A stretch of 64,000 nt of DNA, taken from assembly GCA_048937405.1 (NCBI GenBank), contig JBHLNF010000004.1, positions 1 to 64,000 of the forward strand, written 5' to 3'. Positions 163-5,554 of this stretch are shown piece after piece (positions within the stretch are counted from its first letter, which is position 1; the number at the start of each line of letters is the position of its first letter). Source of the stretch: Promethearchaeota archaeon (GTDB taxonomy: Archaea; Asgardarchaeota; Lokiarchaeia; Sigyniarchaeales; SOKP01). The position numbers were made by a program, and so were the translations under genes. The notes beneath the pieces were generated by a model. The model had not been told where the DNA came from and searched no databases. It worked only from the letters and a program-made list of their open reading frames with translations.

Positions 163-3100
163 TTAACTTATTACATCAATTTTATTATACAATTTATCGA
201 TTTTAGGTAAAATTTCAATTGTTTTTTCGATAGCCGTTATCATTTTTAAAAAATACATTAATTCTTCATGATTTAAACTTCGCTGAAGAGTATTATATTT
301 TTGAGAGGGATTATATTTTCGCGAATTTAAAAACTGCTTGATTTGATTAATTCCCCCAATTGAGTAGTTCCAAACCTCTTGAGTAATTCCTTTTATCCAT
401 GGAATATTATTTATTGAATTTTTTCCATTACTTAAAGTTTCATCAAAAAATAAAGTTTCTATATCTGGGTTATAATAATAATTATTTACAATCCATTCAT
501 CAGGATTTATTTCTGCTAATTCTAAATGGAAACTAACATCGTGTTTCATTAGATGAATATCAGCTAATTCCTTCCCAAAATTTGCCATATCATTAAAAAA
601 CATAGAACTATTAGTAAAAGGAATTCTTGGAAAACTTTTTCTTAAATATTCGTCATATCTATTTCGATATGTTTGAGCAAATAGTACAGCATAACAATAA
701 TAGAAAATCTGTTCTGACGTTGTTTGAAAAGATAATTTTGGTTTAATTATATTCGATTTTCCATTTAAAAATAGAGGGAAAGCATAAGATGTGTCTGTTA
801 TCGACATAAAACATTTTTCTAACAATCTATGTACAATGAAAGCAGTTTCAAATTTTTTTTTTCGTGATGATTTTGTTACTGTTATTGCTGGATTTGATTG
901 GGAAATCTGATCAATATATCCCATTCTATGACCTTCTATTAAAGCCCTGTCATAAGCGATGTATCTAAAATCCCAACCACGATAGTTTATAAAGCGAATA
1001 CTTCCTGTTGCTTTTGTTAAGTTAGTCGCTTTGTATACTTTTAATTTATTCCAAGTTTTTGTATCATTAACTTTAATCTTAAGTTTATTTAAATCTTCGA
1101 ATTTCTTATTAAAAAACAGAGTCAAATTATGTTTTAAAACATCTTTATCTACATCTACTAATAGTCTATCCCTTCCAATCATTATTCCACTTGTTGGTCT
1201 AGATTTAAATAAATCTTCTATTGGATAAAATGATTCAAAACGTTCAATATAAGATGTATCAATATAAATAAAATAATCCTTACTTGTTTCTGGTAACAAT
1301 TTGAATTTGTTTTCTTGAAATCCTTGAGATAAAATAGCGAATTTTTCTTCTTGAGTTGGCTCTGGAATGTCCATATAAAATAATGCCGCATTTTTATTGA
1401 GTGAATTATCTTTTCTAACCATAAATACGATTGCTACACCAACACGTATATCAAATGGATTTCCTGATTCCTTTTTTCGCATATCCCCATGCAAGTTTAC
1501 AATATAGATATAATCAAATGTAGTTCTTAAAGAACGTCTCATAACTGAGAACATTTGACCATCTAAGTATCGACTATTTGTAATAAATGCTAAAATTCCT
1601 GTACCTACTTGTTCAATTTTCCATTGTCCGAAACGTATGAATTTTACATAATCATCTGAAAGAATTTTCAGATTTTTTTCTTTCAATCCAACTTTATAAT
1701 CGTTTATCTTTTCATTTATCCATTCACAGTTATTTTGACTGCTTATATTGTAAGGAGGATTACCCATAATCACGAAAATATCTCTTCTATCTCTAATTTG
1801 GAGCGCTTCTTTTATTTCACGTCCAATATCTTGATTATTAAATATCCATTCTTCAATACTTCGATCTTTTGGAGGAGTCATTAATGTGTTCATTAGAAAT
1901 GAATTTAATTGATATTCTTCAGAATTTAAAGATAATCCTAAATTTTCTAAAGTTAGAAAAGTTCGGATATGTCCAAGAACATAGGGTGCCATAAGAATTT
2001 CAAAGGCGTAAACATTCTTAAAGAAAGTTTCTCTTACCCATTTTTGAAAAGCACTTTGAGCTAAGGACGTCTGTGAAAATTTTTCTTGGAATGATTCATT
2101 AGCAAAATGTAACATACCACATGCAAAAGCCATCGTACCCGCAGCAGGATCAAGGATTCTCAATCGTCTTATTAGTTTATTCTTCTTTTTTTTTTGTATA
2201 TCGGTGATAGAAGTTTGTTTAGACTTCAAAGATGCATTTTCTTCGTGAAAATTAAAGTTATCTTCAGAAATTAAACCAATAGGTTTATCTAACCACCTCT
2301 TTAGCATAAAATCAATACCAGATATTATAAAATCAACTATTTCATGAGGAGTATAAACCACACCTCGATTTTTTGCAGTTACTGGATCATATAAATTTAA
2401 AAAATCGCTATAAAAAGTTGTTATAATGGACTCCGTATTTACCAAACCTTTATATTCAGTTTTCTGGAGTCTTATTTCTAACTCCTTTAAGACTTTCTTA
2501 AATTCTACTGGGATTTTACTTTTTAAAGTTAAAAATAAATCACGAATAAAACTGCCATAGGGCAAATACTCCCCAACCAATTGAAGTGTAAACAACTGTT
2601 GGTTTTCTAAACTCTGATTGTATTTCATCCATGCTGAAAATGCTCCATACACAATCGTTTGTGCGAAGAGATCGGAAAATAATAAATTTTCATTTTCAAT
2701 TTCTTCTTTGAAAATTGATTCTTTAAAATCATCTCTAATCGCCTTTAAATATTTTCCGGCAATTTGTTCTCTTTTATTAATATTATTCATTTTAGATTTA
2801 CTTAAAATATTAAGAGCTTTATCTCTAATAGTTTTAGCAATATCTGCTAATGGATTGATAAGTTTCTTCACGTTTGAAATTGTCTGAAGGTGTTCTTCAC
2901 ATGTATGTGTTAATAATCTTTTGAAATTCGTAATTGCATTTTTTGCTGGTTTAAACCGATTATCTATTTCATCTAACAACACACATTCGAATTTTATTTT
3001 TTGTTTAGTCTGTGGTTCATTTGGGATTGAAGGATCAATTAATAAAATATTTTTAAAATCTGTAATCAATAATTGGACACCTTCATTACGATACCTTAAA

Positions 3101-3420
3101 ATTTGATCATTTAAACGATTATCAGGTTCAAATTTTACGATATTTTCAAGCGGTGTATTTGGTAGTTTAGCTTCAATATGAAAAAGTATAATATTATCAA
3201 ATAAAACAGTAAGATCTGGACGATTACTTGATCCTTCAATTTTGTGCCCTGATTGAACTAAATACCCTTTTTCTGTTGGGAAAATTTCTTCTAAAAATCT
3301 TTTCAGGTCATCATAATATGTTATTTCAGTTGCTGTTTTACTTCGATAATTTTTATCTATTCGTTTAGCATAATCATTTAAAGCTTTTATCGGAATTTGA
3401 AAGTATTCTTGTCTTAGCAT
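163..3420 (-). CDS. Fused restriction-modification enzyme (Type IIG / Type ISP-like without helicase): nuclease + N6-adenine methyltransferase + specificity domain
   Basis: N-terminal PD...ExK motif (RPDLTV...HIEAK); MTase motifs GVVYTP, ILDPAAGT and GNPPY; long C-terminal recognition domain with a W..SIGG..QI.QFL..RK-type tail; no helicase motifs. Confidence 0.85.
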   Translation of the reverse strand: MLRQEYFQIPIKALNDYAKRIDKNYRSKTATEITYYDDLKRFLEEIFPTEKGYLVQSGHKIEGSSNRPDLTVLFDNIILFHIEAKLPNTPLENIVKFEPDNRLNDQILRYRNEGVQLLITDFKNILLIDPSIPNEPQTKQKIKFECVLLDEIDNRFKPAKNAITNFKRLLTHTCEEHLQTISNVKKLINPLADIAKTIRDKALNILSKSKMNNINKREQIAGKYLKAIRDDFKESIFKEEIENENLLFSDLFAQTIVYGAFSAWMKYNQSLENQQLFTLQLVGEYLPYGSFIRDLFLTLKSKIPVEFKKVLKELEIRLQKTEYKGLVNTESIITTFYSDFLNLYDPVTAKNRGVVYTPHEIVDFIISGIDFMLKRWLDKPIGLISEDNFNFHEENASLKSKQTSITDIQKKKKNKLIRRLRILDPAAGTMAFACGMLHFANESFQEKFSQTSLAQSAFQKWVRETFFKNVYAFEILMAPYVLGHIRTFLTLENLGLSLNSEEYQLNSFLMNTLMTPPKDRSIEEWIFNNQDIGREIKEALQIRDRRDIFVIMGNPPYNISSQNNCEWINEKINDYKVGLKEKNLKILSDDYVKFIRFGQWKIEQVGTGILAFITNSRYLDGQMFSVMRRSLRTTFDYIYIVNLHGDMRKKESGNPFDIRVGVAIVFMVRKDNSLNKNAALFYMDIPEPTQEEKFAILSQGFQENKFKLLPETSKDYFIYIDTSYIERFESFYPIEDLFKSRPTSGIMIGRDRLLVDVDKDVLKHNLTLFFNKKFEDLNKLKIKVNDTKTWNKLKVYKATNLTKATGSIRFINYRGWDFRYIAYDRALIEGHRMGYIDQISQSNPAITVTKSSRKKKFETAFIVHRLLEKCFMSITDTSYAFPLFLNGKSNIIKPKLSFQTTSEQIFYYCYAVLFAQTYRNRYDEYLRKSFPRIPFTNSSMFFNDMANFGKELADIHLMKHDVSFHLELAEINPDEWIVNNYYYNPDIETLFFDETLSNGKNSINNIPWIKGITQEVWNYSIGGINQIKQFLNSRKYNPSQKYNTLQRSLNHEELMYFLKMITAIEKTIEILPKIDKLYNKIDVIS

Positions 3421-4197: not shown

Positions 4198-5004
4198 ATG
4201 AATGATGAATTAGTTTTTCTTGGCACGGGAGGAGGACGACATCATATTAGGACACAATATCGAGCTACTGGAGGTATTTTATTTAAATTTAATAATATTC
4301 AGACACATATAGATCCTGGACCAGGAGCTATAGTAAGAATCAATCAATATCATGAAGATCCCACTAAAACTGAACTATTCATAGTTACGCATGCTCATGT
4401 TGATCATTATAATGACTTGAGTGCAATGATCGAAAGTTCAAGGGAAATATTGCATGATAAAAAATATAATTATTATAAGAAAGGTACTCTCATTACTACG
4501 AATGAAATGCTTAAGTTCATTCCTGAATACCATCTTAACATGCTTGAAGGGATAGTCAAATTTAAAAAAGGAGATATTTACATTTATAAGGGAGTGGAAA
4601 TTAAAGCCACTAAAGTAGTTCATTCGTCTAAAAATGAAGGTTTTGGTATAAAATTTAAACTCAAAAATTATTCAATAGCATTTACAAGTGATACAATGGT
4701 ATATGAAAGTTTTTCTGAAGAATTTTCTGGCGTTAACATATTAGTTCTCAATCTTTTACGACCAAATTCAAAGGTGTGCAGAAGACACCTATGTACAGAT
4801 GAAGTTATTCCCTATTTAAACAAGATTAACCCTCCTTTAGATACCCTTATTATTACTCATTTTGGATCATTTATGGATAGTCCTCGTTCAACAAAGAACT
4901 ATGTGCCAAGTCAAGTAAAAAAACTTCAAGGTAATACTAATATCAAAAATATTATTGCTGCTGAAGATGGCTTAAAAATAGGGATTAAAGAACTTTTAAC
5001 ATGA
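4198..5004 (+). CDS. Metallo-beta-lactamase-fold hydrolase (PhnP/RNase Z-like clan)
   Basis: FLGTGGG, IDPGPG, THAHVDH, VH, SDT, RHL and ITHF motifs; 12 bp downstream of the GTPase gene. Confidence 0.85.
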   Translation: MNDELVFLGTGGGRHHIRTQYRATGGILFKFNNIQTHIDPGPGAIVRINQYHEDPTKTELFIVTHAHVDHYNDLSAMIESSREILHDKKYNYYKKGTLITTNEMLKFIPEYHLNMLEGIVKFKKGDIYIYKGVEIKATKVVHSSKNEGFGIKFKLKNYSIAFTSDTMVYESFSEEFSGVNILVLNLLRPNSKVCRRHLCTDEVIPYLNKINPPLDTLIITHFGSFMDSPRSTKNYVPSQVKKLQGNTNIKNIIAAEDGLKIGIKELLT

Positions 5005-5060
5005 AATAAATCCATTTCATAAAAAACATTCTTTTTTAGCTAAATTATTGTAAAAGAAAA

Positions 5061-5210
5061 GGTAAGGGAAAAGAAATTTGCGCCAATTTTTTAAAATCAG
5101 GGAGAGAATTAAACTCTTTTGAGTTTAATAGAGGGCGAATTTTGGCGATCTCCCGATATGAGATAATCTATCCAATGTTTACGCAAATTGTCTGATAGAT
5201 TCCCTTACTT
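5061..5210 (-). ncRNA. Putative structured non-coding RNA (unassigned family)
   Basis: Six complementary segment pairs, including terminal stem 5062-5070/5200-5208; hand count 53/150 GC vs 21/130 in the adjacent 5211-5340; upstream TATA and downstream U-tract on the minus strand. Confidence 0.6.
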
Positions 5211-5230
5211 AATATATAGTAGTTTTAGTG

Positions 5231-5240
5231 ATATAAAAAC
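5231..5240 (-). promoter_or_regulatory. Candidate TATA box for the putative ncRNA
   Basis: Minus strand GTTTTTATAT centred about 26 nt upstream of the 5' arm of the terminal stem. Confidence 0.45.
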
Positions 5241-5554
5241 AATCCTATTATATTTTATTTATGTGACAATGAAACGGAATAAAGTAAATTAATTTATATA
5301 AAATCTCGAAGTAAAATTTAAACATAAAAAGAAAAAATTTTGATAGGAAAAATAATAGATTTTTTATATTTGATCAAGAATACCCCAATTAATCTAATAA
5401 AACCTTTTTTTTAATTTTTTTTGAAGTTTTCAGTAAATTTATTCTAATATATTAATAATTCAATTAATTATTTTGATATAAAGTAAGATTTCTCTTCTTA
5501 TTTTAAATTCATAATGTCAGCTTTTTTAATAATATTCAAATATAATGGATAAAA

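What the first reader, a model, noticed from the sequence alone, without database searches (positions are those of the whole stretch)
5061..5240. Unannotated ~150-nt doubly pseudoknotted RNA-like gene with its own promoter and terminator
Seen directly (+ coordinates): terminal stem GTAAGGGAA 5062-5070 / TTCCCTTAC 5200-5208; stem AATCTATC 5165-5172 / GATAGATT 5194-5201; stem ATCAGGGAGA 5096-5105 / TCTCCCGAT 5149-5157 (one bulge); hairpin ATTAAACTC-TTTT-GAGTTTAAT 5108-5129. Two further pairings cross these stems: AATTTGCG 5075-5082 / CGCAAATT 5182-5189 and CGCCAA 5081-5086 / TTGGCG 5142-5147. One contiguous strand can therefore pair with two different internal loops (double pseudoknot, or a switch, since the two pairings share a CG). 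GC is 35% vs 16% in the flank by hand count. On the minus strand a TTTTTATA box lies about 26 nt upstream and U-tracts follow the closing stem. I could not match it to tRNA, 5S rRNA, RNase P, SRP, C/D box RNAs or hammerhead. Inference: a possibly new Asgard ncRNA class (ribozyme, sensor or scaffold).
Basis: partly seen in the sequence, partly recalled or inferred. Interest (0 to 1): 0.85.

Follow-up and report, generated by a model that had tools for sequence, protein, structure and literature searches.

The report
Intron-bearing Asgard small RNA gene
This is a real, uncatalogued small RNA gene that nearly every genome of one Asgard archaeal family keeps, and this copy carries a 30-base insert shaped like the introns that the tRNA-splicing enzyme removes; cutting it out restores a nearly unchanging 19-base loop whose partner is still unknown.

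Summary
All six pairings exist, but the double pseudoknot does not survive comparison. The element is a minus-strand RNA gene (5211-5053) of a family found in 116/130 genomes of one Lokiarchaeia (Promethearchaeia) family, in several copies per genome, and in no other Asgard family searched. Three nested helices covary (25/25 pairs). They enclose a near-invariant core, ACAUUGGAUUUCGCCCUCU. New here: the extra 30 nt (5169-5140) look like a bulge-helix-bulge (BHB) intron. In 34/34 insert-bearing copies, at two insertion sites, cuts after the second base of two 3-nt bulges around a 4-bp helix regenerate the core exactly. Intronless orthologues exist, and the genome has two splicing-endonuclease genes. 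No Rfam match; not tRNA, 5S, RNase P, SRP, Y, C/D or H/ACA. No RNA data, so transcription and splicing are inferred. Function is unproven: protein-binding scaffold or decoy (~0.4), 16S rRNA guide or chaperone (~0.2; weak statistics), mRNA-binding sibling sRNA (~0.15). The scan noted this family before on other DNA (e1-5498751); the summary shown did not mention an intron.

The parts
5053..5211 (-). small RNA gene, precursor ~159 nt (predicted spliced form ~129 nt)
   Evidence: full-length covariance-model match, 172.6 bits; G.U versus A.C at helix pairs 118:29 favours this strand; spliced length
5232..5239 (-). TATA-like box TTTTTATA, ~24-30 nt upstream of P1
   Evidence: seen directly; TATA-like box at -30..-14 in 95/116 copies, T at -27/-26 in ~80% (AT-rich background, no null computed)
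5200..5208 (-). P1 5' strand (pairs with 5070-5062)
   Evidence: 7/7 pairs with compensatory change
5182..5189 (-). P2 5' strand (pairs with 5082-5075)
   Evidence: 9/9 pairs with compensatory change
5170..5178 (-). invariant core, 5' exon part ACAUUGGAU; UUGG (5175-5172) is the exon strand of the BHB central helix; predicted 5' splice site after 5170
   Evidence: 138/145 copies identical; BHB register
5140..5169 (-). 30-nt putative BHB intron (type 1): hairpin; its CCAA (5145-5142) is the intron strand of the central helix; 3' bulge AA^U; 5' site in a 3x1 loop in this copy
   Evidence: precise excision regenerates the core; 4/4 central helix; intronless joined form present in four DNA runs
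5130..5139 (-). invariant core, 3' exon part UUCGCCCUCU
   Evidence: GCCCU invariant in 117/117 copies (the selection pattern required this motif); variants
5108..5129 (-). P3 hairpin, 9 bp, loop variable; absent from 'mini' paralogues
   Evidence: 9/9 pairs covary; sequence wholly replaced in distant genera; minis
5083..5107 (-). pyrimidine-rich joining strand (UCUCUCCCU..., then U/A-rich)
   Evidence: conserved in composition only
5075..5082 (-). P2 3' strand
5062..5070 (-). P1 3' strand
5053..5061 (-). U/C-rich tail, likely terminator
   Evidence: last 12 nt >=80% pyrimidine in 114/117 copies; function inferred from archaeal oligo-U terminators
4198..5004 (+). convergent neighbour: MBL-fold hydrolase (Lactamase_B_2); marks the ancestral locus, not an obligate partner
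   Evidence: Pfam; synteny across genera; unlinked in g19, g23, g24, g27 and present without the RNA in other families

Best explanation
It is a stand-alone, family-wide small RNA gene. SHOWN (by sequence comparison): a P1-P2 rod with an optional P3 holds an invariant 19-nt strand; some copies carry a 29-52-nt insert at one of two sites in that strand, always in a BHB shape whose canonical cut sites regenerate the strand exactly. INFERRED: it is transcribed from the TATA box to the U-rich tail; the two-subunit tRNA-splicing endonuclease EndA cuts out the insert and an RtcB-type ligase joins the exons (~0.85); the mature RNA is stable. Most likely job (inferred, ~0.4): the rod is a stand that displays the invariant strand to a sequence-specific protein or complex, acting as a scaffold or as a decoy that titrates it, with extra gene copies and a conserved upstream dyad setting the dose (works like CsrB/6S/Y-type RNAs; not a member of any).
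For: Family in 116/130 genomes of family f1 and in 13 of its genera; 25/25 pairs covary, 0/500 shuffles as high; G.U:A.C 118:29. 34/34 distinct inserts excise precisely with a 4/4 central helix: 25 canonical, 8 with a 3x1 loop, 1 helix-only; a 35th in genus g19 by direct reading. Changes in the intron strand keep the pairing (CCAA/CCGA/CUGA; GAUU/AAUU), while the type-2 3' bulge bases vary. Shuffled type-1 inserts give 4/4 in 6.4%. Type-1, type-2 and intronless alleles sit at the same orthologous locus. Two EndA genes fit the relaxed two-subunit type (PMC4090602; 10.64898/2026.10.13.758758). EndA acts on non-tRNA substrates elsewhere (permuted SRP RNA, PMC4731332), and this genome's 5S gene is BHB-flanked. 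For a protein partner: no complement to the whole core above chance in the genome, rRNA, RNase P or SRP RNA; a transversion (C2 to A) is tolerated in the 5' part; multicopy with a fixed core.
Against: No transcript or spliced junction was observed. The BHB helix is not in the minimum-energy fold of most precursors (this copy +2.5 kcal/mol; probability >0.5 in only 3/34), and this copy's 5' site is a 3x1 loop rather than a clean bulge. No partner protein was identified. C-to-U changes in GCCCUCU fall where a GAGGGC partner would have G, which suits base pairing at least as well as protein binding.
Confidence: 0.45

Rival explanations
1. Same gene and intron, but the RNA is a base-pairing guide or chaperone for the 16S rRNA central domain: GCCCUCUA and the strand across P3 grip UAGAGGGC and GGGAGAG at the h21/h22 junction in the inverted, snR30/U17-like topology, or the core pairs with the h23 loop.
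For: [quoted passage not shown]
Against: The test was chosen after the match was seen; a G.U-tolerant score gives 38/300. The 3' strand is not conserved in distant or mini copies. Whole-core energy and h23 tests are at chance (23/60; 127/300). No compensated guide was found in families whose 16S differs. No H/ACA or K-turn features.
Confidence: 0.2
2. A sibling-type regulatory sRNA whose C/U-rich loop pairs with Shine-Dalgarno-like purine stretches of several mRNAs (like Listeria LhrC or streptococcal csRNAs; comparison from memory).
For: Several copies per genome with their own promoters; upstream dyad at a fixed position in 41/116 copies against 2.6% background; the loop resembles an anti-SD sequence and the genome uses GGAGG/GAGGT sites.
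Against: Duplex energies to start regions match a reversed-core control (41 versus 36 below -15 kcal); the best ribosomal-protein candidate (eS4) is not conserved; only ~3% of genes have an SD motif.
Confidence: 0.15
3. One reading: a doubly pseudoknotted ribozyme or ligand-sensing switch.
For: The crossing pairings exist in this copy and are the in-silico preferred local folds; an invariant core could be a ligand or catalytic pocket; a linker:core pairing is enriched.
Against: Two of the helices need the insert, which most copies lack; the CCAA partner that is conserved is exon UUGG; own promoter and terminator with no downstream gene; no ribozyme or riboswitch match.
Confidence: 0.06
4. A selfish repeat or MITE-like DNA element rather than a functional RNA.
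For: Dispersed extra copies, several at contig ends; some degenerate copies.
Against: Ancestral syntenic copy across genera; strand-biased G.U pairs and covariation; no transposase-like ORF noticed beside any copy; no 17-mer core hit in IMG/VR; inserts with splice-motif shape.
Confidence: 0.04

Closest known systems
Archaeal BHB introns in tRNA and rRNA (PMC4090602, PMC6125680); Asgard tRNA introns (bioRxiv 10.64898/2026.10.13.758758)
   Same: 4-bp helix half exon and half intron, two 3-nt bulges cut after the second base, free hairpin interior, 29-52 nt, presence/absence among relatives, more than one insertion site, two-subunit EndA in the genome
   Different: the host is an orphan small RNA, not a tRNA or rRNA; I found no paper in the held library describing such a host
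BHB-processed non-tRNA RNAs: permuted SRP RNA of Thermoproteus tenax (PMC4731332)
   Same: EndA/RtcB acting on a stable non-tRNA RNA
   Different: here an internal intron; no BHB could be drawn at the ends, so no sign of permutation or circularisation
Multicopy protein-binding or sibling small RNAs (CsrB/RsmZ, 6S, Y RNA, LhrC, csRNA; from memory)
   Same: stand-alone ~100-130-nt genes, several copies, short invariant single strand on a variable helical stand
   Different: no sequence or model match; Ro60/TROVE not found in 37 f1 genomes; spliced; archaeal
snR30/U17 H/ACA snoRNA (PMC2664660)
   Same: possible inverted two-strand grip on small-subunit rRNA near h21
   Different: no H box, no terminal ACA, no two-hairpin layout; different target site; second strand not conserved; statistics weak

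Membership tests
BHB (EndA-type) intron | 4-bp central helix between exon and intron at the splice register | tested here: met
   34/34 inserts, two sites; 6.4% in shuffles
BHB (EndA-type) intron | two 3-nt bulges; cuts after the second base restore the uninterrupted host | tested here: met
   exact regeneration in 34/34; 25 canonical, 8 (this copy included) with the 5' site in a 3x1 loop, 1 helix-only
BHB (EndA-type) intron | outer helices flank the bulges | tested here: inconclusive
   intron-side stem present in 33/34, exon side only 1 bp; motif not in the minimum-energy fold for most
BHB (EndA-type) intron | splicing endonuclease encoded | tested here: met
   two PF01974 genes
BHB (EndA-type) intron | cleavage and ligation occur in vivo or in vitro | not testable with these tools
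   needs RNA data or an enzyme assay
tRNA (incl. multi-intron tRNA) | cloverleaf with D/T motifs after intron removal | tested here: not met
   spliced form is a rod; ARAGORN calls nothing here; no T-arm motif or anticodon stem around the splice sites
5S rRNA / RNase P RNA / SRP RNA | Rfam model match; no other copy in the genome | tested here: not met
   no match; true genes lie elsewhere: C28 (5S), C9 (RNase P), C21 (SRP)
C/D box sRNA | boxes C (RUGAUGA) and D (CUGA) forming a K-turn | tested here: not met
   no box C; CUGA varies (CUCA, CUAA, CUGU) across genera
H/ACA RNA incl. snR30/U17 | terminal ACA 3' of a hairpin, K-turn/K-loop, pocket at fixed distance | tested here: not met
   the only conserved ACA is internal; 3' ends are U/C tails
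H/ACA RNA incl. snR30/U17 | conserved bipartite pairing with SSU rRNA, with compensatory change | tested here: inconclusive
   15 bp in this copy; target invariant in f1; no compensated guide found in f2-f4
Y RNA | Ro60/TROVE protein in the host | tested here: not met
   0/37 f1 genomes searched
U5 snRNA | loop-1 motif in a terminal loop, Sm site, Rfam match | tested here: not met
   partial likeness to loop 1 recalled from memory only; no U5 hit at E<=10 on four members
Double-pseudoknot ribozyme or riboswitch | conserved crossing helices | tested here: not met
MITE / IS-associated RNA (omega, bridge) | terminal repeats, target duplications or a linked transposase | tested here: not met
   none seen in the flanks and ORF lists read; fixed syntenic locus; no systematic target-duplication search run

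The most novel reading that the evidence does not exclude
An Asgard-specific, intron-containing guide RNA that base-pairs with the 16S rRNA central domain to chaperone small-subunit assembly, a prokaryotic counterpart of eukaryotic processing snoRNAs such as snR30/U17, with EndA splicing acting as its on-switch.
Probability: 0.12. Interest if true: 0.93.

Novelty: new variant of a known kind. Interest (0 to 1): 0.72.

Why it matters
Few RNA genes beyond tRNA, rRNA, RNase P, SRP and modification guides are catalogued in Asgard archaea, the closest prokaryotic relatives of eukaryotes. This one is kept by about 90% of the sampled genomes of a large Lokiarchaeia family with an almost unchanging core, so it probably has a fixed and important partner. 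If the insert is spliced, it extends tRNA-type cis-splicing to a new host class (an orphan small RNA), shows introns gained at two sites 3 nt apart in one loop, and gives a precise, cheap test: a predicted junction and two predicted cut sites. It also corrects a trap: single-genome folding makes intron-bearing copies look doubly pseudoknotted.

Tried and rejected
Sequencing-run search: no RNA holder listed; only DNA contigs could be laid. Exact search for an intronless allele with this subclade's P2 flank in metagenomes: none. Core 17-mer in IMG/VR: none. Model hits outside f1 (G044 at 3914860 and 723362, G048, G058 and others) lie in coding sequence or lack the core, and were rejected; two weak phylum hits (G190, G228) likewise. 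Positional search behind the MBL gene in other families: no RNA. Compensated 16S guides in f2-f4: chance-level or rRNA-only hits. eS4 start region as target: not conserved. Whole-core complement in genome, rRNA, RNase P, SRP: chance level. Trans-BHB target in rRNA, 5S, RNase P, SRP loci: none. CRISPR anti-repeat: no array with a matching repeat in the genome. Upstream dyad as a general stable-RNA promoter element: not supported, and not recognisable in this copy. Likenesses recalled from memory (U5 loop 1, U6, 16S 3' tail, CsrA site, T-box, fluoride riboswitch) are short and unsupported by Rfam. Errors of mine: the G.U count used a mis-copied structure (redone); the helix probability was off by one (redone); the synteny flag used too short a window (synteny taken); two searches were malformed queries.

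Full report
Observation. The six pairings, the GC contrast (35% against 16-18%), the TATA-like box and the pyrimidine tail are all present as described. The minus strand folds far better than shuffles (z -4.5). Rfam has no match over the element even at E 10. The element lies in a 1.3-kb gap, convergent on an MBL-fold hydrolase gene (4198-5004 +) that follows a Rab-like GTPase.

Family. A DNA search found it in 33/36 genomes of the genus, mostly between the same MBL and EamA genes. Covariance models extended this to 116/130 genomes of the family, plus the remaining two genera; an even phylum sample gave 25/25 in this family and no credible hit in the others searched. Record titles name Promethearchaeota (Lokiarchaeia) MAGs such as E44_bin85, Loki_b32, TEKIR_8 and AMARA_5S. 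Genomes hold about one to six recognisable copies; this genome has five, counting a mini form without P3 and a degenerate one.

Conserved structure. Three nested helices (P1, P2, P3) covary at all 25 pairs, with 379 cells changed on both sides and no shuffle as high (kin inflate this control, but P3 is wholly replaced in distant genera). G.U outnumbers A.C 118 to 29, fixing the minus strand as the RNA. Between P2 and P3 lies a near-invariant strand, ACAUUGGAUUUCGCCCUCU: its first nine bases are identical in 138/145 copies. The strand after P3 is only pyrimidine-rich. RNase P, SRP and 5S genes lie elsewhere in the genome, box C/D and H/ACA features are absent, and Ro60 was not found in the family.

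The insert is shaped like a BHB intron. About a quarter of copies, this one included, have 29-52 extra bases inside the invariant strand. Archaeal introns are defined by a 4-bp helix flanked by two 3-nt bulges, with one cut in each (PMC4090602; 10.64898/2026.10.13.758758); the cut after the second bulge base is from my own knowledge. In all 34 distinct insert-bearing copies, that register both gives a fully paired central helix and regenerates the core exactly. Type 1 (27 copies) uses exon UUGG with intron CCAA, CCGA or CUGA. Type 2 (7 copies), three bases further on, uses exon GAUU with intron GAUU or AAUU. Twenty-five are canonical on the intron side; eight, including this copy, have the 5' site in a 3x1 loop; one has only the helix. 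Shuffled type-1 inserts give a full helix in 6.4% of cases, and two independent sites satisfy it. Type 1, type 2 and intronless alleles occupy the same orthologous locus, a near-identical pair with and without the insert exists in genus g19, and DNA contigs from four studies continue from 5139 directly into the 5170 sequence, so the intronless form exists as DNA. The genome encodes two EndA paralogues, the architecture linked to relaxed substrates, and its 5S gene is permuted between BHB ends. Caveats: nearest-neighbour folding does not favour the BHB in most precursors (this copy +2.5 kcal/mol), and nothing here shows transcription or splicing directly.

After splicing the RNA is a ~129-nt rod. 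The competing helices could slow splicing in this subclade, but that is speculation.

Function. A long antisense target was sought and not found: genome-wide complements with G.U and two mismatches are at shuffle level, as are start regions, RNase P, SRP and rRNA by energy, and h23 by helix length. One match deserves a test: GCCCUCUA and the strand across P3 can form 8+7 contiguous Watson-Crick pairs with the 16S h21/h22 junction in the inverted layout that snR30 uses on 18S (PMC2664660). It is reached by 0.6-1.8% of shuffles under a post hoc score and 11-13% under a looser one, the second strand is not conserved, and no compensated guide was found in families with a different 16S. An invariant strand without a long complement, displayed on a variable stand and kept in several copies, best fits recognition by a protein or complex (scaffold or decoy, ~0.4); rRNA guide (~0.2) and mRNA-binding sibling sRNA (~0.15) remain open.

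Novelty. No Rfam family and no paper found in the held library describes this RNA or a BHB intron in such a host. The scan's notes already list the family from another genome with unknown function (e1-5498751) and several first readers saw the same false pseudoknots; the summaries shown do not mention the intron. I class it as a new variant of a known kind: an uncatalogued small RNA gene that appears to be a new host for tRNA-type introns. Interest 0.72.

Noticed in passing
own genome C28:194135-194254 (-) (L397); G082 C10 (L398): The 5S rRNA gene is circularly permuted and bracketed by a 4/4 BHB motif, at different permutation points in the two genomes; this explains weak or missing Rfam 5S hits. 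The scan has noted this before in other Asgard genomes.
   Followed up: partly
L032 (G030:C71:106772-109149) and L015 (G005:C2:59941-61228): The 3' half of the RNA gene is duplicated 1-2 kb downstream, with a different sequence and unrelated ORFs (one with a Loki-CTERM tail) in between, as when an element integrates into a stable RNA gene; in G030 the repeat begins inside the intron hairpin.
   Followed up: partly
about 68 nt upstream of P1 in 41/116 copies (e.g. L005, L013, L091); window 5260-5279 is the matching place: A dyad GTW-N11-WAC (often TGTTC-N9-GAACA) at fixed distance upstream of the TATA box suggests a transcription-factor site; it is not recognisable in this copy and not general to tRNA or rRNA genes.
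   Followed up: partly
own genome C7:~464170-464270, C7:~214290-214420, C28:326215-326335, C19:~168140-168260: Four paralogues: a mini form without P3 at a second locus conserved in the genus, one 300 nt upstream of the uS8-uL6 genes, one short form, and one with a changed core.
   Followed up: partly
L022 (G003:C23:448-572): A short copy lies beside an RPA/SSB-like gene at a contig end, away from the usual locus; possibly carried on a mobile element.
   Followed up: no
L100, L169, L176; G062:C12, G061:C80, G074:C168: Pairs of copies 0.3-1.3 kb apart, some in tandem.
   Followed up: no
window 163-3420 (-): 1085-aa protein with a Type ISP C-terminal specificity domain (restriction-modification type) upstream of the GTPase.
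   Followed up: no
own genome C18:~39.2-40.4k and at least eight other places: Multicopy ~900-bp element whose reading frame looks like a TnpB/IS605-type transposase gene, some copies broken.
   Followed up: no
L172, L179, L186, L203, L237: Records titled Hodarchaeota, Hermodarchaeota, Odinarchaeota or Thorarchaeota carry the RNA, but several match contigs of genomes placed in this Lokiarchaeia family by length and coordinates; the titles are probably wrong.
   Followed up: partly
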